64,000 nt of DNA from a virus: the UHGV virus genome UHGV-0084588. One strand, 5' to 3'. Each line of letters begins with the position of its first letter. The stretch's first letter is position 1. The position numbers were made by a program, and so were the translations under genes. The notes beneath the pieces were generated by a model that was given only the letters and a program-made list of their open reading frames with translations, did not search any database and was not told the DNA's origin. Positions 22,662 through 36,470 of this stretch are shown here, piece by piece.

Positions 22662-23207
22662 ATGAAACAAATACAGTTAACTGATCACGTTAATGCGTTT
22701 AAACACTTTCTGGATAACGCGGGTATAAAACCCGGCGAACAGACAGACGCATGGACTGCACGTGTTTATGGAAGTATTGGCAAAGTCTGTGAATCCACGA
22801 CAACACACGACGGGTTGTTTGTTGCTAAAGCAGTGGGCATCGCCTTGTGGGATATTGCTGCTCTAGTTTACGTGATGAATAACGGGGATTTACGTCCCCT
22901 TGAAAAATCGCTACACCGACTACTAGCCATTAAGAAATGGAAAAACGAACATCCTGAGTCAATCGCGGTTACGTTGATGCCAGAAGCGGTACTTGCTATC
23001 AAAGCGGTACGAAGTTGTACCGCTCGCGCACAAATGGAGCGGCGTCTACATCTCGCGACGCTCTTTTATCAATTGGCCAGAATTGTAAAGATGAACGGCC
23101 TAATCTTCGACCGGGTTCTACAGAACGGACGTATAAGTTGGACAGAAGAACTAAGTAGTTCTCCGTTCTATACAAAACTAAAACTTAAAGACATTTTGAA
23201 GGGTTAA
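22662..23207 (+). CDS. hypothetical protein
   Basis: 181-aa ORF. Confidence 0.45.
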   Translation: MKQIQLTDHVNAFKHFLDNAGIKPGEQTDAWTARVYGSIGKVCESTTTHDGLFVAKAVGIALWDIAALVYVMNNGDLRPLEKSLHRLLAIKKWKNEHPESIAVTLMPEAVLAIKAVRSCTARAQMERRLHLATLFYQLARIVKMNGLIFDRVLQNGRISWTEELSSSPFYTKLKLKDILKG

Positions 23208-23208
23208 C

Positions 23209-23517
23209 ATGGAAAACTATTCGGGTTGGGCAATTTCGCAGTGCATTGGCTATTCTTTACGTTCTTTAGTGCGTACACTTTATAACAAAAACTCAGGCGA
23301 AACTATTACACCACAGCTACTGGGCAAATTGGAAGTTGAAGTTAACCACAAATTAAAACAGTTACTCGACAGCCACGTAAGAACAATGCGTTGGGAGTTC
23401 TTGCTACGCGGTAAGAAGCCAACAATTACCGTTGTAGCAGAAGGCAGTGAAATCGTACTGCAGTCCAACGCAGACCTATTTGAAATTTTAACTGAACTCG
23501 AAAAGGACAAAATCTGA
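23209..23517 (+). CDS. hypothetical protein
   Basis: 102-aa ORF immediately upstream of thyA, with an ATGA overlap. Confidence 0.45.
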
Positions 23518-24551
23518 TGAAACAGTATTTAGCGTTAATGCAAGACATTCTGGATAACGGTGTTGTTAAGAAAGACCGCACAGGTGTAGGGACACTTTCT
23601 GTATTCGGCCGTCAACTACGTTTTGACCTGAAAGAAGGTTTCCCATTAGTCACTACGAAAAAGGTTCACCTGAAAAGTATCATTCATGAACTGTTGTGGT
23701 TCTTAAACGGTGACACTAACGTGAAGTACCTGCAAGAGAACGGGGTAAAAATCTGGAATGCATGGAGTGATGAAGAGGGGAACTTAGGGCCAGTTTATGG
23801 TAAACAATGGCGCGAATGGCGCGACTGTAAAGTTGTGGAGTGCCATGACGTAAGACGTACACAACAACTGATGCAGCGGGGTTACAAGTATATTGGGAAT
23901 ATGAAGGAAGATGGTACGACGTATTTGGTTTATGAAAAACCACATGACCAGATCAGCAAAGTTATCCAACAACTTCGTGAAGACCCTGACTCCCGCCGTA
24001 TTATCGTTAGCGCCTGGAATGTAGGTGACCTGGACGATATGGCACTTAATCCATGCCACAACTATTTCCAATTCTACACAACAGAAATGACGTTGCTTGA
24101 ACGACTGGATTGGTACGAAGCAAATGAACCGGAAAAATTTGCGAACGCGCCACTTATTAATCACGAAGATATTGATGATGAAGAACGACTTCATGAAACT
24201 TTAGATCGTGAAGGTATCCCTCGTCGTAAGCTTTCATGTTTTTACATGATGCGCAGCAACGATGTCGCATTAGGAAAACCGTTCAACATCGCGTCATACG
24301 CTCTGTTAACTCATATGGTTGCCCAACAAGTGAATATGGTTCCCGATGAGTTAGTTTATAGTGGGGTCGATGTGCATTTATATCTGAACCACATCGATCA
24401 AATAAAACTCCAGTTGACTCGTGAGCCGTACCCGTTACCTAAATTGGTTATTAAACGTAAACCCGAATCTATCTTCGACTACAAATACGAGGACTTTGAA
24501 GTAGTCGGTTACCAATCACACCCACACATCGCCATGCCTGTCGCGGTGTAA
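23517..24551 (+). CDS. thyA: thymidylate synthase (ThyA type) with two insertions
   Basis: Long stretches match E. coli ThyA ([59 protein letters not shown], catalytic [22 protein letters not shown]); 344 aa versus about 264 because of two inserted segments. Confidence 0.9.
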
Positions 24552-24580
24552 ACTACCACTTAACTAAAAGGAATGATAAA

Positions 24581-25027
24581 ATGTCTAAAACTCATGTTGA
24601 CTATAACATCGTAGTAGAAGAATTATCAAAAGGTTTAACCGATCTGGATTCTAAAGATAATCCGTTTACTGATCGTTATGGTCCCAATGCCTTATCTGAA
24701 TTTCGTACTATCCGCTACGGTACAGGCAGGCAGACAGGACTTACAGACTTCGGTGTCGAGTTAGCTAAGAACCATAAAGGGAAGGTGTTATTCGTTAACC
24801 CAAAAGGGTTCTTAGAGGACGATGTGCTATTCCGTTTGGGTCTCGAAGACTTGCCTGAGAATATCACGCAAATCATTGGTTATCAGATGGGTACAGAAAA
24901 AGAAAAATACAGTCTTGTCATTGTAGACGACGCTGGGGTTTTCTTTAGCATGTTCCGTTACATGAAGTTTTTCCGCTTACTAGCAAACTCAGTAACTAAA
25001 GACGTCGTAATACATTTAATGGGTTAG
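24581..25027 (+). CDS. hypothetical protein
   Basis: 148-aa ORF; RBS AAAGGAATGATAAAATG. Confidence 0.5.
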   Translation: MSKTHVDYNIVVEELSKGLTDLDSKDNPFTDRYGPNALSEFRTIRYGTGRQTGLTDFGVELAKNHKGKVLFVNPKGFLEDDVLFRLGLEDLPENITQIIGYQMGTEKEKYSLVIVDDAGVFFSMFRYMKFFRLLANSVTKDVVIHLMG

Positions 25028-25046
25028 TTGGCGATAAGGAAAAATT

Positions 25047-25220
25047 ATGTTGGGCGATGTTCTTAATTTCACAATATCGTATTTCGAGCCGAAGAAGTTC
25101 CGTACTTTTAACACACGTTATTGTAAAGGGCCGAAAAAAGGGCGTAAACGTTTCCAAGTAATCCAACTTGATTATTCCAAGTTCCTTGAAGCTAACCCAT
25201 TCGAGAAGGAGGAACAATGA
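25047..25220 (+). CDS. small basic hypothetical protein (57 aa)
   Basis: Below the ORF-track cutoff; RBS AAGGAAAAATTATG; stop overlaps the next start (ATGA). Confidence 0.3.
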   Translation: MLGDVLNFTISYFEPKKFRTFNTRYCKGPKKGRKRFQVIQLDYSKFLEANPFEKEEQ

Positions 25221-25593: not shown

Positions 25594-25633
25594 GGGGTGC
25601 TTATGTAGCACCCCTAATCCTTATTCTTTTTTT
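25594..25633 (+). terminator. intrinsic terminator
   Basis: GGGGTGC-ttatgta-GCACCCC hairpin followed by a T-rich tract. Confidence 0.55.
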
Positions 25634-25655
25634 GTTTAAACTAATGGAGTTTAAA

Positions 25656-26489
25656 ATGGGCGAACGTTTTGACATCAACACTATTTACAACATCGTAGTT
25701 AATCCTGGTCAGCACCTGGAAGAAGTTAACGCGCAACTGCGCGCTCTGAATGAGAATTCAGTACAGTTCGACGCTATTTACACAATTGGTGTAAACCCTA
25801 GTACCAACCGTATTCGTGTAGAAGGTAAACGCCACACCGGTAATCAAGAACTGGATATTGAAACGATTGTAGCGCCTATTAAGCTTACCGATGCCGTTTA
25901 TAACGGTACGGTAATGCATACAGAATCTGTTCTAGTTTGCACGATCGCAAAATGTGTAAAACTCGTTAAAGGTTGGTCTAAAGAACGTGGTATCCTTGAC
26001 AACGGTAAAGTGGAAACACAAATCACGAAGTTCTTTGAAGAGTTTGGTGAAATCGCAACAGGTATCAGTAAAAACAAACCTGAACTGATCATGGATGGTA
26101 TTGGTGATGCGTTGGTGGTTCTGGTAAACATCATCGAATTAGGGGATGCGTATTCTGGTCACCTTACAGTGGCAGAAGACTGCATCGAGTCTGGTCTACG
26201 CTTAAACGTGGAAGATGTAGCTGAAGTTGAAGAAAATTTAAACAACGCTGGATACCCACATCAACAATACCTTCGCGCTATTGAAAGTTTTGCCACAACC
26301 TTTATGGAAGGTAAAGATCATGGTTTCGATTTCGTTAGCCTGGGTTTAGCCCATCTTGCTCGTATCGCCTTGTATTATAAACTGGATATTCGTCATTGCT
26401 TCTCTTTAGCCTGGCATGAAATCAAAGACCGTAAAGGCTATCTGAACGCCGACGGCATCTTTGTAAAAGAAGCAGACTTGGCGAAATAA
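25656..26489 (+). CDS. possible MazG-like nucleotide pyrophosphohydrolase
   Basis: ATG at 25656 after GGAG preferred over 25632; segment FFEEFGEIATG...LIMDGIGDALVVLVNIIELGD resembles the EExGE...D metal-binding pattern of MazG-type enzymes. Confidence 0.4.
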   Translation: MGERFDINTIYNIVVNPGQHLEEVNAQLRALNENSVQFDAIYTIGVNPSTNRIRVEGKRHTGNQELDIETIVAPIKLTDAVYNGTVMHTESVLVCTIAKCVKLVKGWSKERGILDNGKVETQITKFFEEFGEIATGISKNKPELIMDGIGDALVVLVNIIELGDAYSGHLTVAEDCIESGLRLNVEDVAEVEENLNNAGYPHQQYLRAIESFATTFMEGKDHGFDFVSLGLAHLARIALYYKLDIRHCFSLAWHEIKDRKGYLNADGIFVKEADLAK

Positions 26490-29345: not shown

Positions 29346-32300
29346 TTACGCCGATTTACGACTAACGTCGAGTTGTGGCGCTGGTTGGGTTATTGACACG
29401 TTACGTGACGCCGAACCCGGAGCGGTTGACGCAGGGTTAGCCGGTCCGTTTTGCATAGCCTGTGGTCGCTGACGAAGAATTGTTACAATCTCTTTCAGGT
29501 AGCCCGCAGACTCTTTTGCAACCGCCAGCTGCTGTACGCTGATCGGATCACCGCTGTTCACTGTAGAGCCGGTCTGTGCATCGGACGTTACTGTTGGTGC
29601 AGGGCGGACTGATTTCTCCATCTGCTGTCTAGCACCTTCTTTTACTTTAGCAACATCCTCTTCGGCCAGGCCGTCAGCACGAGCGTTTTGACCCACCGTA
29701 TCTACAACAACTGACGCATCACTCGGTGTAACGTCGCCGCCAGGGCTCGGCACAGCCGGACCACCGCCCGTCGCAGCTTTAATGTCATCGGCCCCCATTG
29801 CACCTTTATCTGCTAAGGCTGCATCACGATTCGCCTCGTTCGCAGCTGGCAGGTTATCTGCCGGGCCTGTGATAGACGGATCGTTAGCAGCGCCCGCAGC
29901 GATGGCTGGGGATGACGGCATTGGCGTTACGCCTGTCGTCAAGTCTTTCACCGATGCCTGATTAGCCGCAATTGCGTTTGTTCCTACTGCACCAATCTTA
30001 CCACCCATGATGTTGAGCACTTCATCCAAACTACGCAATTTTCCATTCTTGTAGAAAATTGTGCTGTTTGCCGCGATTTGATCGGCCGATGCACCACGCG
30101 ATGACGGACCGTTCGGATCACGCTTCCATTCTTGCAGGAATTTCTTACCGCCACCTTGTCCTAAGAAGTGGTAGAGGTAAACTGCTGCACCAGGAGGATC
30201 GATGCCACCTAAATCCTTTCTGGCTTTCTCGATATTGTCACGAATATGGCGGACACCAAGCAGAGTATTCGCCCACGGGTCATACTGGTCGGTTTGCGGG
30301 ATACCGTAACGTCTAGCGTAAGCTTTCATCTGCGCACCCCAGGTATCGTTGATGAACTGGAACAAGCCAGCCGCAGAACTTCCTTTAGCTTTGATGCCGT
30401 ATCTAAGTCCTGATTCTGCTTGTGCCATTCCCAGAGCTAACGCTGGGGGAACACCCATCATCTTCGCTACATCTGTAATCAGTGCCGCAACCGCATTCAG
30501 GTTAGGCTTCAATCCGTCGCCCAACGTTGAAATTGGATACTTAGCCGCTAACGTTTTATAATCACCGTCTTGCATCTCGCCAAGCTTCACACCGAAGTTA
30601 CCGGTACTAAACGCGGCGTAATTCTTAGCTCCCATCTGACCATAAGCACCAGCCAAATCGTTTGGCGTGCCGTAATTCCCACCGTCATTCGCTGCCGGTT
30701 GAAGCAGATCGCGATAAGAGGAGGAAGTATTCATCTGTTGCCGAGGTGGTTGGTCCTTCTCGTCATCGGTCAAGAACATCTGAGTCGCACGATCTTTTCG
30801 CTGCCAGTTCACACGGAAACCAGCAGAAGGCGTAGCACGCAGCGTTTTACGTACTGCCAAATCAGCTTCCTTAGACAGTTCTTTCAGATTCTCTAACTCC
30901 GTCGCAACTGAACCAGCGTCAGTGTTAGCATCACCCCCTAACGGGTTAAACGGTACCTCCCACACCGATTGGCGAATACCCCCTTTCAGGTTGTATGCAC
31001 CACGCATCATCAGTGCGATTTCATACAAGAACCCGCCTGTAACGCGTAGGTCCATCGGATCGGCAGCAGGGACATAACGTTTCACTCCAACCACGTACGT
31101 CATGAAGACAGGTAAGAAGCGGTTATAGAACCAGTTCTTGTACCGATCTTCTTTTGGCCCACCAATAGCGTCAGGTGCAATCACCGCAATCGCACGTTTC
31201 CAGTCTCCTTTATACGTACAACTTTTCACATCAGTGTCTTGCAACACTTGACGTTCTAGGAGCGTATAGAGGTTACGGGTTGTTTGAGTAATGCTCACAG
31301 CACCATAAGCTTTCAACCTTACAGATTCCAAATCACGGAGATCGGTTTCTTTAGGTAAGCTTCTCCAGTCAACTTGAACCTGAACTTGTTCGGTGCCGTC
31401 TTCCCAACCTTCAACCTTTGCAACCTCTTTGTTGCGTTCCGCATCCGCTTGAGCCAACGCTTGGGACGATTCCGCCACAGAAGCAACTTTGTGTCCTTCG
31501 GCCACGCCGCCTGTAGCATTAACATCCTTACGTTTTTCATCACGACGCATGTTAATCGAACGAAGCACGCGTTCTTGTGCTTCAACGACTTCTTCACCTG
31601 ACAAAAACTCGGCCGGGGTAAACGTTACGAAATCCCACGCTTTAGAGAACCAACCTTGGTTAACCTTGCGGGGGTCTTCTAATGCACGGAATGCAGGTGC
31701 GTCTTTCGACATCTTCATTTTGTTAAAGATGTTCAACATGTCTGCTTTCGACACTTTCGCTGGATTACCGACGTCAGCTAACGCGATATCGTTATCCATC
31801 GATTTCAGTGCCGTAATCCAACGTAAGTAAATAGGCACAAAACGTTGTAGCATAAACGCACTAAACGCCAGCATTTCGCCTTTGTCTTCTACGTTAGTAC
31901 CAAACCCTTCGGCCAGTTTCTTCACGTCGTCACCGGACAAACCACGCAGCTGCGCTTGACCGTTCTCTGTATAAGAGATATACGGTTTCAAGTTGTCTTC
32001 TAAATAACGTGCTTTTGCACCGTCGTCGGAAGACCATTCATCGTGGTCTCTAAAACCGTACTGCGCCAATCGCATGTTATCCAGATACTGGGCATTTACA
32101 CGGGTTGCAGTTTTATACGCAAACCAAGACAGCGCAGCGCCTGCAGCGACCAAGCCAATAATCGGCCAGCCAACCGCAGTTACCACTGCAGATGCCGCTG
32201 TCGCGACAGCACTCACCGCAGGGACAGCCAAACGGGTCACAGCAAACTTACCAACGTTCCACAACGCTTTGCCTGCAAATCCAACCGGCTTGAAGATTCC

Positions 32301-35300
32301 CCATTTTGCAACTTTACCTAAGATTGAACCCACTGTGCCCAAAATACTCACAATCGGTCCTACCAACGGCAGTCCTTTAAGGAAATCCATTACCCCACGT
32401 TTACCACCTTTCTTCTCAGCCTCTTTCTTAGCCTTTTCCTCTTCCTTAGAACGACGACGGCGTCGGAAGAACTGGAAGTAATCGCGTTTTTCATCACTGG
32501 CAGGCGGCTTATTGCGTTGGCCGAACTTACTGAACATAGTTCTTAACAAACCATCCGAAGCACCTGCTTTTTCCGCAGAATCACGCATGGTGTTAAACCA
32601 TGACATTTCCTGAAGATTAACCATTCGGTTCAGGCGTTCCAGTAAAGCTGACCCAACGCTACGGGCTTTCTGTTTCCCTTTATTAATCACACGACCAGCG
32701 CTATCCATTACGGTGTCTAAGTCTTCTTTTGCCGCATCGACGATACGTGTTTTAGACACCTTGCCTCTTGCGTAGATGTGTTGACGGTAAAACTCAGCAA
32801 CATCGTCATCGCGTCCTGCTAAACGACTCTCCATTCGATAACGTGTGCCAATATCGAAACGTGGATCACGGAAAGTATCGACCATATCGCTTGCACGACC
32901 ACGGAAACGATCAAACCAACCACGTGCGGCACCGCCCCAACGAGAAAGACGATCGCCTACCGCACCGCGATAACGGGACATTCTGTCACGCATCCGACCA
33001 CGCCAATCCCGGAACCCCTGAAAATGTTCACGGAACCCTTCACGTATGTCTTTAGCACGTTGGAATAATCCTTTAACTGAGCTGGCTCCCGTATTCCGTT
33101 CCATCTGTTCTGTCCAGGTATCATCTTCTGGTTCACCTGGCAATCTCCGGTTAAGGAGTTTGTAGATACGGATTAAGATGTGGTTAGTTTTACGGCCGTT
33201 CGACCATGAGAACACACTAAACCCACCACCAGAACCCCCTTCCTTACGGTTCTGCCACCAACGTGTCAGAGGGTTATCAGAAGCCAACTCTTTGAGCTTC
33301 TCAAACCCGCGTTTTGCATTGTTCCACAAACGTGCTGGCATTCCCGTTACACGGGAAATCATGCTTTGTAAACGGGTTTTCTCTGCGCCCTCTGGAACCT
33401 CATTTAACCACTCACGTGCTTTCTCGAACAACGAAGCCGCTTTAGGTGAAATGAAGCCTAAAAGTTTCTTCGGTAAAGTCACAGCTTTGTTTACCGCCGT
33501 TCCTGCTTTCCCAGAAATGTACTGGAAAAGCGCTTGAACTTTACCGCCTTTGTAGAATCGCAGTTTACCTGCGGCAGCCAAATCAGCAGCAGATAAGATT
33601 AAATTACCCGCTTCATCGACAATATCACGTCCCAGTTTAATATCGTCGAGGGTTTTAAGTTGAATCAGCTTCTCAGTTTTCGGGTCAGCCTGGTAATATT
33701 CCCCAGCTTCTAAACGACTTCCTTGTAATACGACGTTGCCACGTTCATCGTAAATATCACGAACACCTAAAACGCCTTTACCGAAAGCTACAGCAGAATT
33801 CCAACCTGTCGATAGAGTACCTGTTACTAACCCTTTCAGTCGGCTAAATACACCGGGTCCTTCGGAGGAGCCGCCTGAGAATTTCCCACGGATAAAACCA
33901 CCTAAAGCCTGCAGACGATCTTTCCCACGTAGGAACAGATTCTTACCAAAACGCCCTACACCTGAACCGGTATCCCAAAGCACCCCAGCCCAACGGCGTA
34001 ACAAGCCTGTCTCGCCTAGCACAATACGTTTGCGTTTACGACGACGTTTACGACCCGAGTCACTCGAACTTTCAGTTTCGTCACCGTCATCACGACTACC
34101 GCCTAAACTGGCTAGGAGAATACCTTCCTCATCCATGTTCTTAACGTGTTTGAGGATATCTTGCACTGTGCTAGATTCGGGCTGTTTACGTACAGCATCA
34201 ATCAAACGGTCGAATTGCTGTTCCAACCCGGCGTTCGTATCTGGACGACTGCTTAATAGTTCAACAAAGTTAGTGGATTTCTCTCCATAAAGTACCGCAG
34301 CGAGTTGACGTGCGCTTAAACCGCGACCACGACCACCTTTTCCACCGCCACGCACATTGGACAGTTCTTTGTCTTCAAAGCTCGGCTCTGCACCTGCACC
34401 CATCCGACGCAAGTAATCACCCAGCGCAGAACCGTTTTGCAATTTACGCTGAATCTCTTGCTCACGGGTTAACGAACGTCCAGAGCGGGTCTTACCCATC
34501 GACAGGTCATTAAATAACGTATAGGGATCGTTAATGTCCTTATCGACCTCGAAAATGTCTTTCTTCGCATCGTATTTAAAAATACCGGAATCACGAAGTG
34601 CATTCTCGCCGTAAATCACAGACGCAGCATCAACAGTGTCCTGACGTGCGCGAATCGTTGACTGGATAGCGGCGATTTTGTTTGAAATCGCGTTGCTCAA
34701 TTCATGGTGTCCACCAACCAGTTCCGCAGAACGGGCTTCTAAAACACCCTGAATCGCTTCCACAGCGTTTGCGTTCATGTACCGATACATGTGCATCGGG
34801 TCTTTCAATAAAGACCCTACATCGAACGCTTTCCCTTCCGAGGCACGGGATTCGATGTAGTCTGCTAACGCCTGACGTGTTTTCCGATCGAGCGTTTTAT
34901 CTTTATCGATAAAGTCGACTGTATCGTTGATGTAAGTCTGTAAACGTTTACGCTGATCGTCATTAGCAACCGCTTTACGAACACGATTACCAATAACTTT
35001 ACGATCCACCATACCGCGTGTGGTCAGGTCATAAACCTGATCGTGGTGTTCACCATATCCACGACGAATAGATTTGTTAATCTCGGACAGTAACGTCGGA
35101 ATAACTTCAGTGATGCTGAGGTAAGCTTTACGATCGAATTTCGCCGCCGCAGAAAGAGATTCCGCAGAGCGATCGTCTAATGCTAACGTTTCGCGACGTA
35201 GCGGGTTAACCAATCCCAATTCGTGCATTAGTCGAAACAGATCAGCTAACGGGCCGCTTGTTTCTCCTGCTATTGCTGAGTTAGAAATAGACGATAAATT

Positions 35301-36470
35301 TCCAAAACCATACTTCGCCAACTGAAGGCGTTTCATGACTTCTGGATTTTTCTCCAACTCGCCACGAGTCCAGTTTTGTAGACGTTCGATCTGGGGTTGT
35401 AAGAGCCGTTTTGCTAACCAACCACCTGCAAAACCTGCCGCTTTATTACGCGAGTTTGTATTACGACGGTCAGGAGACAACGATGAGCTGTCCGACATGT
35501 CAAAGTCGTCTTCCTGGGCCATCCCTAGAACTTGTTCTAGAATCCCACGACCATCGCTAAAGACGTTCGAGATTTTCTTCTTCGCGTTCTCACGAATCTG
35601 GCTAATGAAATTGTCTGCGTAATGTAAGGGGTTCATCCACTCCGCAGCTTTACGTTTTACATTAGCCCAACGAATTTCAGAAAACTCTTCCTTCGCGTAG
35701 TCTGGCAGTGCTGTGTTCTTAACGATGGCTTCTAATGCCGGTGTATTGCGTGCAAACTCGTCTTGTTTGAGTTTCGCAATATCCTGCAAAGCAAACAATG
35801 TCCGGTATTGCAGCTCTAACTGCTTACGCTGAACATTCAACAACACGCCCCGACTTAAGCTAGTCGTTAAGTTGACGTCTTTTGCAATACCGATTACTGT
35901 CTGGAACAGTGCGTCGGACTTCATGTCCTTAATCGTGTCACGCAAGCGGTCTTCAACCATCCCTTCTTGCGTTTCACGTTGCTGGTCCGCCGTTTGCGGT
36001 GCACCTGAGAACACGCTGTCCAGCTCACGATCCATCAACGCTTGTTTAGGATCGTAATTCCCATAGTCGATTTGATCGTTACGTGCCCACTTGTCGATTT
36101 TCCGTGTTACGGATTCCGGTAAATACCGTTTCAGTGTTGGGCCTAACTGTCTCGCTTGCATCTTAACGACGCGAGACGTCTTTTCAATCTCGTCTTTCGT
36201 ATGGGCCAGAATGTCTTGACCTGCAGCTTTAACGTTTTGATAGCCTTCGTAGGCTTCTGCCGCAGGTTTAGGCATCCCTTTTAAAATAACCTGATCACGT
36301 TTGTTTTCGGGCCAGATAGTCGACAACGCCGACTTACGGGCAGCACGAAATGTGTCCATGACCGGGTTACGCGATTGGTCTTGTTGACGAGGGGGCTCAT
36401 CAAAATCGTCCCAGTCGTCCATGTTATCAAGATCGATTTCATCGAAATCATCTTTACCTTTTTTAGCCAT
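29346..36470 (-). CDS. giant virion protein (2374 aa) with C-terminal lytic transglycosylase domain
   Basis: Acidic N-terminus (DDFDEIDLDNMDDWDDFDE); long hydrophobic Ala/Val/Gly-rich membrane-like region; C-terminal region with AQAESGL, AAGLFQF and YLYHFLGQGG resembling the SLT signature; overall like phiKZ gp181-type proteins. Confidence 0.8.
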   Translation of the reverse strand: MAKKGKDDFDEIDLDNMDDWDDFDEPPRQQDQSRNPVMDTFRAARKSALSTIWPENKRDQVILKGMPKPAAEAYEGYQNVKAAGQDILAHTKDEIEKTSRVVKMQARQLGPTLKRYLPESVTRKIDKWARNDQIDYGNYDPKQALMDRELDSVFSGAPQTADQQRETQEGMVEDRLRDTIKDMKSDALFQTVIGIAKDVNLTTSLSRGVLLNVQRKQLELQYRTLFALQDIAKLKQDEFARNTPALEAIVKNTALPDYAKEEFSEIRWANVKRKAAEWMNPLHYADNFISQIRENAKKKISNVFSDGRGILEQVLGMAQEDDFDMSDSSSLSPDRRNTNSRNKAAGFAGGWLAKRLLQPQIERLQNWTRGELEKNPEVMKRLQLAKYGFGNLSSISNSAIAGETSGPLADLFRLMHELGLVNPLRRETLALDDRSAESLSAAAKFDRKAYLSITEVIPTLLSEINKSIRRGYGEHHDQVYDLTTRGMVDRKVIGNRVRKAVANDDQRKRLQTYINDTVDFIDKDKTLDRKTRQALADYIESRASEGKAFDVGSLLKDPMHMYRYMNANAVEAIQGVLEARSAELVGGHHELSNAISNKIAAIQSTIRARQDTVDAASVIYGENALRDSGIFKYDAKKDIFEVDKDINDPYTLFNDLSMGKTRSGRSLTREQEIQRKLQNGSALGDYLRRMGAGAEPSFEDKELSNVRGGGKGGRGRGLSARQLAAVLYGEKSTNFVELLSSRPDTNAGLEQQFDRLIDAVRKQPESSTVQDILKHVKNMDEEGILLASLGGSRDDGDETESSSDSGRKRRRKRKRIVLGETGLLRRWAGVLWDTGSGVGRFGKNLFLRGKDRLQALGGFIRGKFSGGSSEGPGVFSRLKGLVTGTLSTGWNSAVAFGKGVLGVRDIYDERGNVVLQGSRLEAGEYYQADPKTEKLIQLKTLDDIKLGRDIVDEAGNLILSAADLAAAGKLRFYKGGKVQALFQYISGKAGTAVNKAVTLPKKLLGFISPKAASLFEKAREWLNEVPEGAEKTRLQSMISRVTGMPARLWNNAKRGFEKLKELASDNPLTRWWQNRKEGGSGGGFSVFSWSNGRKTNHILIRIYKLLNRRLPGEPEDDTWTEQMERNTGASSVKGLFQRAKDIREGFREHFQGFRDWRGRMRDRMSRYRGAVGDRLSRWGGAARGWFDRFRGRASDMVDTFRDPRFDIGTRYRMESRLAGRDDDVAEFYRQHIYARGKVSKTRIVDAAKEDLDTVMDSAGRVINKGKQKARSVGSALLERLNRMVNLQEMSWFNTMRDSAEKAGASDGLLRTMFSKFGQRNKPPASDEKRDYFQFFRRRRRSKEEEKAKKEAEKKGGKRGVMDFLKGLPLVGPIVSILGTVGSILGKVAKWGIFKPVGFAGKALWNVGKFAVTRLAVPAVSAVATAASAVVTAVGWPIIGLVAAGAALSWFAYKTATRVNAQYLDNMRLAQYGFRDHDEWSSDDGAKARYLEDNLKPYISYTENGQAQLRGLSGDDVKKLAEGFGTNVEDKGEMLAFSAFMLQRFVPIYLRWITALKSMDNDIALADVGNPAKVSKADMLNIFNKMKMSKDAPAFRALEDPRKVNQGWFSKAWDFVTFTPAEFLSGEEVVEAQERVLRSINMRRDEKRKDVNATGGVAEGHKVASVAESSQALAQADAERNKEVAKVEGWEDGTEQVQVQVDWRSLPKETDLRDLESVRLKAYGAVSITQTTRNLYTLLERQVLQDTDVKSCTYKGDWKRAIAVIAPDAIGGPKEDRYKNWFYNRFLPVFMTYVVGVKRYVPAADPMDLRVTGGFLYEIALMMRGAYNLKGGIRQSVWEVPFNPLGGDANTDAGSVATELENLKELSKEADLAVRKTLRATPSAGFRVNWQRKDRATQMFLTDDEKDQPPRQQMNTSSSYRDLLQPAANDGGNYGTPNDLAGAYGQMGAKNYAAFSTGNFGVKLGEMQDGDYKTLAAKYPISTLGDGLKPNLNAVAALITDVAKMMGVPPALALGMAQAESGLRYGIKAKGSSAAGLFQFINDTWGAQMKAYARRYGIPQTDQYDPWANTLLGVRHIRDNIEKARKDLGGIDPPGAAVYLYHFLGQGGGKKFLQEWKRDPNGPSSRGASADQIAANSTIFYKNGKLRSLDEVLNIMGGKIGAVGTNAIAANQASVKDLTTGVTPMPSSPAIAAGAANDPSITGPADNLPAANEANRDAALADKGAMGADDIKAATGGGPAVPSPGGDVTPSDASVVVDTVGQNARADGLAEEDVAKVKEGARQQMEKSVRPAPTVTSDAQTGSTVNSGDPISVQQLAVAKESAGYLKEIVTILRQRPQAMQNGPANPASTAPGSASRNVSITQPAPQLDVSRKSA

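What the first reader, a model, noticed from the sequence alone, without database searches (positions are those of the whole stretch)
23517..24551. Host-like thymidylate synthase carrying two insertions
The protein aligns by eye almost residue for residue with E. coli ThyA across the N-terminus, the catalytic-cysteine segment and the C-terminal third, with the cysteine (PCH) and the Arg/Asp motif (RSNDVALG) retained. It carries two inserted segments: about 34 aa after GKQWREW, at the small-domain position where some TS enzymes are known to carry inserts, and about 45 aa ([50 protein letters not shown]) before the Arg/Asp motif. The high similarity suggests recent acquisition from an enterobacterial host; the inserts could be phage-specific interaction surfaces.
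Basis: partly seen in the sequence, partly recalled or inferred. Interest (0 to 1): 0.5.

Follow-up and report, generated by a model that had tools for sequence, protein, structure and literature searches.

The report
Jumbo-phage thymidylate synthase with family inserts
This is an intact thymidylate synthase gene of a giant nucleus-forming-type phage, and its two extra segments are old, conserved features shared with related phage enzymes (one also with a solved Burkholderia enzyme), so the gene is ordinary and was not recently taken from the host.

Summary
ORF 23517-24551 (+) encodes a 344-aa ThyA. It is colinear with E. coli ThyA in three blocks, with about 68% identity over 257 aligned residues. 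It carries a net +34 aa at residues 103-142 and +46 aa at residues 190-236.

- **Inserts are inherited, not new.** Both occur in SPN3US, Goslar, Erwinia jumbo phages and a phiKZ-like phage. The 201phi2-1 enzyme is the best viral fold match.
- **Widespread in databases.** 117 of the 150 best 50%-identity cluster representatives carry an insert at the second site.
- **Insert 1 is not phage-specific.** It aligns without gaps to the solved Burkholderia thailandensis enzyme (PDB 3v8h).
- **Insert 2 is unsolved.** It has a conserved motif (E-R … L-D … P-x-R) and no counterpart in any solved structure.
- **Both inserts look functional.** AlphaFold2 folds them confidently (pLDDT 96.6), and both are under purifying selection (dN/dS 0.07 and 0.03).
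- **No recent host capture.** Synonymous sites against E. coli thyA are near saturation, and core identity to Paenibacillus, Erwinia and E. coli is flat at 60-65%.

Catalytic residues are kept, except that Gln165 is Met. What the inserts do was not tested. The gene is an ordinary enzyme with a modest structural curiosity.

The parts
23517..24551 (+). thyA: 344-aa ThyA-type thymidylate synthase (stop codon included)
23515..23519 (+). TGATG overlap: the stop codon of the upstream ORF (23209-23517) overlaps the thyA start codon, which suggests translational coupling
   Evidence: Read directly from the sequence. Coupling is an inference.
23823..23942 (+). Insert 1 (aa 103-142) in the small domain. 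Predicted as strand 101-108, helix 112-120, strand 124-131 and strand 134-143.
24054..24056 (+). Codon of the catalytic cysteine C180 (E. coli C146) in the P-C-H motif
   Evidence: Sequence. Invariant in alignments A1-A3.
24084..24224 (+). Insert 2 (aa 190-236), an acidic excursion of three helices (193-203, 205-210, 222-231) from the hairpin that joins the two interface strands
   Evidence: Alignment break. AF2 pLDDT 94-98, except the loop 211-220 at about 71. Family motif with R196 at 90%, E195 at 76%, D230 at 69%, P235 at 96% and R237 at 64% across 99 sequences; net charge -11. No PDB chain covers it. dN/dS 0.027.
24249..24251 (+). Codon of M245, the position of E. coli Gln165, a residue that lines the dUMP pocket. 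It is Met in all 143 close variants.
   Evidence: In the wider family this position is Q 68%, M 18%, I 8%.

Best explanation
The gene encodes a working ThyA-type thymidylate synthase of a Seoul-like (SPN3US-related) jumbo phage. Phages of this kind are found as persistent ~222-kb elements in enterobacterial isolates.

**Chemistry (inferred from conserved residues and fold).** The enzyme is a homodimer. C180 attacks C6 of dUMP, methylene-tetrahydrofolate donates the carbon and the hydride, and the products are dTMP and dihydrofolate.

**Origin of the inserts (shown).** The two extra segments are not recent additions. They are inherited, folded modules typical of the TS of phiKZ-like/chimallivirus phages and many uncultured phages.
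- Insert 1 is a strand-helix-strand-strand unit in the small domain. It is also present in Burkholderia-type cellular ThyA.
- Insert 2 is an acidic three-helix excursion. It leaves the hairpin between the two central strands of the dimer-interface sheet, far from the catalytic cysteine along those strands.

**What the inserts do (inferred, not shown).** Neither insert replaces a catalytic element. I think they most likely act as surface modules that tune dimer stability or inter-subunit communication, or that dock partner proteins of phage nucleotide metabolism in the cytoplasm. My estimates are about 0.35 for partner docking and about 0.35 for dimer or allosteric tuning, with the rest unknown.
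For: **Identity as a TS.**
- Pfam and NCBIfam matches are above the curated cut-offs.
- R21, E58, W80, W83, Y94, R126/R127, C146, H147, R166, S167, D169, N177, D205, H207, Y209 and the C-terminal residue position are all kept.

**Inserts are inherited.**
- Both are present in SPN3US, Goslar, Caitlin, phiEaH2, SPAsTU and Parshik and in the phiKZ-like phage KEN51.
- The 201phi2-1 TS is the best BFVD fold match, with query-normalised TM-score 0.92.
- Of 150 cluster representatives, 117 have at least 10 aa at the insert-2 site and 107 at the insert-1 site. The motifs are shared.

**Inserts are functional protein.**
- AF2 gives pLDDT 96.6 and pTM 0.94.
- dN/dS is 0.068 and 0.027.
- 143 variants keep both inserts.

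**The two inserts are independent modules.** Co-occurrence is 85 observed against about 83 expected. ChrisDB and LucasX have insert 2 without insert 1. Burkholderia TS has insert 1 without insert 2.

**Context.**
- A MazG-like nucleotide pyrophosphatase lies nearby.
- SPN3US-like phages encode DHFR, TS and dTMP kinase (PMC6614189).
- TS-GFP is excluded from the phage nucleus in the PhiPA3 system (PMC9067925).
- Insertions in human TS have been linked to substrate-binding cooperativity (PMC9536839).
Against: - No activity, oligomer state or binding partner was tested.
- I could not obtain model coordinates. The position of the inserts relative to the partner subunit and the active sites therefore rests on strand topology, not on measured distances.
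- Gln165, which is conserved in canonical TS and lines the dUMP pocket, is Met here. D81 is Asn. The kinetic consequences are unknown.
- The phage-only distribution of insert 2 rests on a few contexts and on unannotated metagenomic proteins.
Confidence: 0.85

Rival explanations
1. thyA was captured recently from an enterobacterial host, and the two inserts then arose in this phage as new, phage-specific interaction surfaces.
For: - The core is colinear with E. coli ThyA and 67.7% identical to it.
- An 80-nt patch (24421-24500) is 82.5% identical to E. coli thyA.
- The SPN3US, SPAsTU and ChrisDB cores lean towards Enterobacterales ThyA at 74-79%.
Against: - Third-codon-position identity to E. 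coli thyA is 38.5%. Only 43% of codons for identical residues are the same. GC has shifted to the phage value.
- The window protein is equally similar (60-65%) to Paenibacillus, Bacteroidota and Enterobacterales ThyA, and closer (about 70%) to phage enzymes.
- Both inserts are homologous to those of phiKZ-like and other phage TS. Insert 1 is also homologous to a Burkholderia TS insert.
Confidence: 0.04
2. Mosaic origin. A host-like (Enterobacterales-type) core was combined by recombination with insert modules from an older phage TS. This would explain why some relatives have cores up to 79% identical to E. coli ThyA while sharing inserts with enzymes whose cores are only about 50% identical.
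For: - SPAsTU, ChrisDB and SPN3US show a taxonomic gradient of core identity: Enterobacterales 74-79%, then other Gammaproteobacteria, then Firmicutes at 65-68%. Their core identity to the insert-2-bearing LucasX enzyme is only 52-55%.
- Codon identity to E. coli thyA is locally raised at residues 308-327.
Against: - Rate differences alone could produce the pattern, with phage enzymes such as LucasX, phiKZ-like and this window's clade evolving faster.
- The neighbour-joining tree was unresolved and had no support values.
- No recombination breakpoint was shown.
- The window protein itself shows no leaning towards Enterobacterales.
Confidence: 0.15
3. The enzyme is not a dTMP synthase. It would instead be a TS-fold pyrimidine hydroxymethylase or another base-modifying enzyme, and the unusual Met at the Gln165 position would reflect changed chemistry.
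For: - Q165M is fixed in the clade, and M, I or L are frequent at this position in the insert-bearing family.
- Jumbo phages do use TS-superfamily enzymes to make modified bases (PMC7824862).
Against: - N177 (uracil specificity), W80, W83, L143, Y94, E58, H147 and a C-terminus of E. coli length (…PVAV) are all kept.
- NCBIfam TS equivalog cut-offs are passed.
- SPN3US, phiEaH2, Parshik and other close relatives keep Gln at this position.
- Related phages encode DHFR, which is needed only if dihydrofolate is produced.
Confidence: 0.04
4. The extra segments are non-protein or self-removing elements (a small intron, an intein or a read-through artefact) and not part of the mature enzyme.
For: TS genes of phages are classic homes of introns and homing endonucleases. 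phiKZ-like and RisingSun TS genes are split by endonuclease genes.
Against: - The inserts are in frame, only 40 and 47 codons long, and lack intein termini.
- No Rfam intron family matches in 23000-25200.
- Both are under strong purifying selection at the protein level.
- Both fold confidently as part of the domain.
- Insert 1 is seen in a crystal structure of a homologue.
Confidence: 0.01

Closest known systems
E. coli ThyA (264 aa; PDB 2TSC, 1TYS and many others)
   Same: Colinear core with 67.7% identity over 257 residues. The catalytic and ligand-binding residues and the C-terminus are the same. Foldseek target-normalised TM-score is 0.96.
   Different: It lacks both inserts. It has Gln165, Asp81 and Cys168 where the window protein has Met, Asn and Asn. 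Synonymous sites are near saturation, so there is no recent shared ancestry.
TS of cultured chimalliviruses: SPN3US gp229, Goslar gp141, Erwinia phages Caitlin, Parshik and phiEaH2, Salmonella phage SPAsTU
   Same: Full-length colinearity at 58-65% identity (core 64-70% in the profile-based alignment; 69-75% in alignment A1). Both inserts are at the same sites with similar lengths. The genomic neighbourhood is syntenic with SPN3US.
   Different: Insert sequences are only 20-38% identical between genera. Most relatives keep the LYQRS motif, where this clade has YMMRS and Goslar has LLARS.
TS of phiKZ-like phages (KEN51, Phikzvirus) and 201phi2-1 (BFVD B3FJL1, 457 aa)
   Same: Homologous inserts at both sites. 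In insert 2, the KEN51 enzyme reads TRELTLEERYDW…LGVPKRALSC where the window protein reads [12 protein letters not shown]…[10 protein letters not shown]. The 201phi2-1 model matches with query-normalised TM-score 0.92.
   Different: These enzymes carry a third insert of about 110 aa near E. coli residue 85. The KEN51 gene is split by a homing-endonuclease gene. Core identity is only about 47-50%.
Burkholderia thailandensis thymidylate synthase (PDB 3v8h; NCBIfam NF010393 / PRK13821 type)
   Different: It is a cellular enzyme with no 46-aa insert 2 and 39% identity. The window protein scores 228.6 against a cut-off of 576 for NF010393, so it is not a member of that family.
Known insertion sites in other TS enzymes: human TS loops 115-126 and 146-153, the Lactobacillus casei 50-aa small-domain insert, and the surface inserts of phage T4 Td
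   Same: Insertions cluster in the small domain, where insert 1 lies. In human TS they have been linked to substrate-binding cooperativity (PMC9536839). From my own knowledge, not checked here: the T4 Td inserts were proposed as contacts within the T4 dNTP-synthesising complex, and L. casei TS has a 50-aa insert.
   Different: None of these enzymes has an insert at the hairpin between E. coli Y153 and V154.

Membership tests
ThyA-type thymidylate synthase (Pfam PF00303; NCBIfam TIGR03284, NF002499, NF002497) | Full-length profile match above the curated cut-offs | tested here: met
   PF00303: 370 bits against a cut-off of 24.3, covering profile positions 1-266. NF002499: 409.9 against 405. NF002497: 395.1 against 327. 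TIGR03284: 339.1 against 108.
ThyA-type thymidylate synthase | Catalytic Cys in P-C-H, plus the phosphate-binding arginines (R21, R166, R126'/R127') and S167 | tested here: met
   C180, H181, R21, R246, R160/R161 and S247 are present and invariant among relatives.
ThyA-type thymidylate synthase | Uracil-specifying Asn177 and the general acid/base network (E58, Y94, H147, D169, H207, Y209) | tested here: met
   All are present.
ThyA-type thymidylate synthase | Conserved Gln165 next to Arg166 (L-Y-Q-R-S) | tested here: not met
   The residue is Met245 (Y-M-M-R-S), fixed in 143 of 143 close variants. In the insert-bearing family the position is Q 68%, M 18%, I 8%. It is not a catalytic residue. 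From memory: substitutions at the human equivalent Q214 are tolerated. I did not verify this (searches found nothing).
ThyA-type thymidylate synthase | C-terminal residue at the canonical position, needed to close the active site for hydride transfer | tested here: met
   The protein ends …MPVAV, aligned residue for residue with E. coli …APVAI.
ThyA-type thymidylate synthase | TS fold | tested here: met
ThyA-type thymidylate synthase | Obligate homodimer; makes dTMP and dihydrofolate | not testable with these tools
   This needs a multimer model or structure and an enzyme assay.
Insert-bearing phage TS (chimallivirus type; an informal group defined here) | Insert of about 36-50 aa between E. 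coli Y153 and V154, with the motif T-x-E-[LM]-[ST]-x-x-E-R … L-D-x-x-x-[VI]-P-x-R-x-L-S | tested here: met
   The window protein reads TTEMTLLER…[12 protein letters not shown]. Column frequencies are and alignments.
Insert-bearing phage TS (chimallivirus type; an informal group defined here) | Small-domain insert of about 34 aa with W-x-D-x-[KR]-x-[VI] … G-[YF] … K-x-x-D-Q-I | tested here: met
   This feature is optional in the group, as ChrisDB and LucasX lack it.
Burkholderia-type ThyA (NCBIfam NF010393 / PRK13821) | Whole-protein score above the curated cut-off | tested here: not met
   228.6 bits against a cut-off of 576. The protein shares insert 1 only.
dCMP / dUMP hydroxymethylases of the TS superfamily | Asp in place of Asn177 (cytosine-specific enzymes); closer fold and sequence match to the hydroxymethylases than to TS | tested here: not met
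Intein or group I intron inserted in a TS gene | Intein: more than about 130 aa with Cys/Ser/Thr at the N-terminal junction and His-Asn plus a nucleophile at the C-terminal junction. Intron: a structured RNA that interrupts the reading frame. | tested here: not met
   The inserts are 40 and 47 aa, in frame and without such termini. There is no Rfam intron hit. Both are under purifying selection as protein.

The most novel reading that the evidence does not exclude
Insert 2 may be a distinct functional module that has not been described: an acidic three-helix excursion with a near-invariant Arg (R196), Pro (P235) and Asp (D230). It grows out of the hairpin joining the two central strands of the TS dimer-interface sheet.

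It is present in more than 100 sequence clusters at 50% identity, apparently all from phages, and in no solved structure. It is under purifying selection at least as strong as that on the catalytic core.

The module could either reach across to the partner subunit, which would change inter-subunit communication, or dock a phage partner such as DHFR, dCMP deaminase, ribonucleotide reductase or a MazG-like enzyme in a cytoplasmic dNTP factory of nucleus-forming phages.
Probability: 0.3. Interest if true: 0.45.

Novelty: new member of a known kind. Interest (0 to 1): 0.22.

Why it matters
As an enzyme this is routine. Many jumbo phages make their own dTMP, and identical proteins are already deposited and named thymidylate synthase.

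The useful results are corrections. The 'host-like' look reflects how conserved bacterial ThyA is, not a recent gene capture. The inserts are lineage markers of phiKZ-like/chimallivirus TS, not novelties of this phage.

The residual interest is structural. One of the best-studied enzymes in biochemistry has a large, conserved insert at a site (the interface hairpin) where no solved structure has one. It occurs in a phage family whose nucleotide metabolism is kept in the cytoplasm, separate from DNA replication inside a protein nucleus. If the module mediates assembly or allostery, it would be a handle on how these phages organise dNTP supply.

Tried and rejected
- **Megablast of the gene against phages:** no hit. 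Only protein-level searches were informative.
- **Structure job with alignment A2:** I rebuilt the alignment as A3.
- **Foldseek afdb50 library:** not installed. I therefore have no UniProt-wide taxonomy for insert-bearing TS.
- **Model coordinates:** not exposed. I could not measure distances from the inserts to the active site, to each other or to the dimer axis. Statements about position rest on strand topology.
- **First MAFFT run of 159 sequences:** timed out. I replaced it with hmmalign to a core profile.
- **Neighbour-joining tree:** poorly resolved and without support values. I do not rely on it.
- **Insert 2 alone against PDB, and both inserts alone against PHROGs:** no matches.
- **Profile search of the 5.8-billion-protein database:** swamped by near-identical persistent-phage variants, so it gave little new diversity.
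- **Genome-contig scan:** it used peptide patterns from this protein. It returned only 264-aa cellular ThyA, and it is biased by those patterns.
- **tblastn for DHFR in the window, with an E. coli FolA sequence typed from memory:** nothing found.
- **Literature searches for the inserts, Gln165 and Q214:** no description of these inserts was found.
- **Pfam scan of the very large inserts and N-terminal extensions in other family members:** only one weak endonuclease-domain hit.

Full report
**1. The observation**

The window has one long ORF at 23517-24551 on the + strand, 344 aa. Its ATG overlaps the stop codon of the upstream ORF as TGATG. Pfam's thymidylate synthase model matches from end to end (E = 7e-111).

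Against solved structures, the protein aligns to E. coli TS (264 aa) in three colinear blocks:
- residues 1-102 to E. coli 1-102
- residues 143-189 to E. coli 109-155
- residues 237-344 to E. coli 157-264

The protein therefore carries 40 residues (103-142) where E. coli has six, and 47 residues (190-236) where E. coli has one. The net gains are +34 and +46, and 264 + 80 = 344. Over the 257 aligned positions identity is 67.7%.

**2. The inserts are real protein**

- 143 distinct variants at least 92% identical, from independent assemblies, keep the same length and both inserts.
- I compared the gene with its homologue on an E. coli 'plasmid' record (L001, 87% nucleotide identity in the gene). 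Nei-Gojobori dN/dS is 0.07 for the core, 0.068 for insert 1 and 0.027 for insert 2.
- No Rfam family, introns included, matches in 23000-25200.
- The segments are far too short for inteins.
- AlphaFold2 with a 108-sequence alignment gives pLDDT 96.6 and pTM 0.94. Insert 1 is modelled as strand 101-108, helix 112-120, strand 124-131 and strand 134-143. Insert 2 is modelled as helices 193-203, 205-210 and 222-231, with one softer loop (about 71) at 211-220.

**3. What the element is**

The closest cultured relatives of the protein are the TS of SPN3US-like Salmonella phages, Goslar, and the Erwinia jumbo phages. They are 58-65% identical at 100% coverage.

At the DNA level, only short stretches of the 24-kb neighbourhood match these phages, at about 73% identity. 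At about 81% identity, 86-90% of it matches two records deposited as circular plasmids of 221.9 and 222.4 kb, from E. coli and Enterobacter ludwigii. Near-identical proteins sit on 220-226-kb contigs of Salmonella, Shigella and E. coli isolates.

A preprint describes this phenomenon as 'Seoul-like' persistent virulent jumbo phages, which encode chimallin, in bacterial assemblies (10.1101/2024.12.31.630880).

Gene order around thyA is syntenic with SPN3US gp221-238. Neighbouring genes include a MazG-like pyrophosphatase and virion proteins.

**4. The inserts are family traits, not novelties of this phage**

An alignment with SPN3US, Goslar, Caitlin, phiEaH2, SPAsTU and Parshik shows both inserts at the same positions in all of them. 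In that alignment the core is 69-75% identical to the window protein, while the insert columns are only 20-38% identical.

More distant phages show the same pattern:
- A phiKZ-like phage (KEN51) has homologous inserts at both sites. In insert 2 it reads TRELTLEERYDW…LGVPKRALSC where the window protein reads [12 protein letters not shown]…[10 protein letters not shown].
- ChrisDB and Xanthomonas phage LucasX have insert 2 but not insert 1.

The best match among predicted viral structures is the 201phi2-1 TS (query-normalised TM-score 0.92).

I ran an exhaustive HMMER search of 1.84 billion cluster representatives. Among the 150 best hits:
- 117 have at least 10 extra residues at the insert-2 site, most commonly 36-44.
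- 107 have extra residues at the insert-1 site.
- 54 have extra residues at a third site near E. coli residue 85.

This list is biased towards insert-bearing proteins, because the query carries the inserts. It still shows a large and diverse family.

Insert 2 has a family motif. R196 is conserved at 90%, E195 at 76%, D230 at 69%, P235 at 96% and R237 at 64%. It is usually acidic, with a median net charge of -4 and -11 in the window protein.

The two inserts occur independently of each other. Co-occurrence is 85 observed against about 83 expected.

The contexts I could inspect for other insert-2 enzymes are phage-like.

**5. Insert 1 is already represented in a solved structure**

The window protein is not a member of that cellular family (NF010393: 228.6 bits against a cut-off of 576). 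It simply shares the module.

This site is also where human TS has a short insertion (residues 146-153; PMC9536839). From memory, L. casei TS has its 50-residue insert there too.

No solved chain covers insert 2. Every PDB alignment breaks there, and the segment alone finds nothing.

**6. Is the gene host-like, and was it acquired recently?**

'Host-like' is true only in the sense of 'canonical bacterial ThyA-like'.
- Nucleotide identity to E. coli thyA over the aligned blocks is 63%. Third positions are 38.5% identical. Only 43% of codons for identical residues are the same.
- GC is 43% (window average 46%), against 51% for E. coli thyA.
- Core identity of the window protein to ThyA of Paenibacillus, Brevibacillus, Bacteroidota, Erwinia, Mixta, Shewanella and E. 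coli is flat at 60-65%. The phage enzymes are closer, at about 70%.
- All 80 cellular loci returned by the genome scan are 264-aa genes without inserts.

A recent capture from an enterobacterial host is therefore not supported.

One point deserves note. Some relatives (SPAsTU, ChrisDB, SPN3US) do lean towards Enterobacterales (74-79%), yet they share insert 2 with enzymes whose cores are only about 50% identical. This could reflect unequal evolutionary rates, or old recombination between host-type and phage-type genes. I could not decide between these. My neighbour-joining tree was unresolved.

**7. How it most likely works**

*Shown.* Every residue known to bind dUMP or to act in catalysis is present: R21, E58, W80, W83, Y94, R126/R127, C146, H147, R166, S167, D169, N177, D205, H207 and Y209. 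The C-terminus has the E. coli length. The NCBIfam equivalog cut-offs are passed. The fold matches TS much better than it matches the hydroxymethylases.

*Inferred.*
- The enzyme is a dimer that makes dTMP and dihydrofolate.
- It would act in the cytoplasm. TS-GFP is excluded from the phage nucleus in the PhiPA3 system (PMC9067925), although I did not check which TS was tagged in that experiment.
- It would work alongside the DHFR and dTMP kinase reported for SPN3US-like phages (PMC6614189).

*Unusual.* Gln165, which lines the dUMP pocket, is Met in all 143 clade members. D81 is Asn. Met, Ile or Leu at the Gln165 position are common in the insert-bearing family, so the change is probably tolerated. 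Its kinetic effect is unknown.

*Position of insert 2.* It leaves the hairpin between the strands that carry E. coli F149 and L163. The human equivalents, L198 and L212, lie on the dimer-interface sheet (PMC9536839). Along those strands it is about nine residues from C146 and R166, at the far end of the sheet from the active site.

*My best guess, unproven.* The inserts are surface modules that tune dimer behaviour or dock partners. The same paper argues that the insertions of human TS introduce binding cooperativity, which is a precedent for the first option. The proposal made for T4 Td's inserts (from memory) is a precedent for the second.

**8. Verdict**

This is a real, correctly described feature in an ordinary enzyme. 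It is a new member of the chimallivirus-type TS group. Identical proteins are already deposited and named thymidylate synthase.

The recent-acquisition reading is wrong, and the interaction-surface idea is untested. The one thing worth a structural biologist's attention is insert 2, a conserved module at a site where no solved TS has an insertion.

Noticed in passing
whole window; L001 (NZ_CP173450.1) and NZ_CP134650.1: The window belongs to a jumbo phage distantly related to SPN3US. Its relatives at about 81% nucleotide identity are deposited as circular 'plasmids' of about 222 kb in E. coli and Enterobacter ludwigii. More than 140 TS variants lie on 220-226-kb contigs of Salmonella, Shigella and E. 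coli isolates. This matches the 'persistent virulent jumbo phages' (Seoul-like cluster) of bioRxiv 10.1101/2024.12.31.630880.
   Followed up: partly
window 22662-23207 and 23209-23517: The gene just upstream of thyA corresponds to one 289-aa protein in SPN3US (gp228, phrog_10269). Here it is two ORFs of 181 and 102 aa, separated by a +1 frame change. The same split is annotated in the E. coli 'plasmid' relative. It is therefore either a genuine split or a programmed frameshift, and not a sequencing error. phrog_10269 has a weak link to MazG-like proteins.
   Followed up: partly
window 25632-26489: A 285-aa MazG-like nucleotide pyrophosphohydrolase (phrog_7855, E = 9e-69) lies about 1 kb downstream of thyA. 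This suggests a small nucleotide-metabolism cluster. The 148-aa ORF between the two genes (24581-25027) matches only an unknown-function family (phrog_2586).
   Followed up: no
window 24421-24500: An 80-nt patch is 82.5% identical to E. coli chromosomal thyA. It encodes the [19 protein letters not shown] stretch. Codon identity at identical residues is raised here (76% in residues 308-327, against 43% overall). This may be chance, codon bias or an old conversion tract.
   Followed up: partly
L011 (Pseudomonas phage KEN51) 201-2664; Erwinia phages RisingSun and Joad (hits H61-H63): In phiKZ-like phages the TS gene is split directly after …LSCQLYQR by a homing-endonuclease gene. In RisingSun and Joad it is split by a GIY-YIG endonuclease gene. 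The window gene is uninterrupted.
   Followed up: no
proteins P0121-P0270 (cluster representatives): Other family members carry very large in-frame additions. These include 130-272 aa at the insert-1 site (one with an I-HmuI NUMOD-like endonuclease domain, P0169), about 200 aa near E. coli residue 85 (P0121, P0202), N-terminal extensions of about 140 aa with no Pfam match (P0124, P0153, P0208), and Cys-rich variants of insert 2 (P0262, P0228).
   Followed up: partly
window 29346-36470 (- strand): A 2374-aa ORF. Its homologue in the E. coli 'plasmid' relative is annotated as a transglycosylase SLT domain-containing protein. It is probably a giant virion or ejection protein.
   Followed up: no
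window 23784-24194 (- strand): A 136-aa antisense ORF lies entirely inside thyA and spans both inserts. Given the strong purifying selection on the thyA frame, it is most likely spurious.
   Followed up: no
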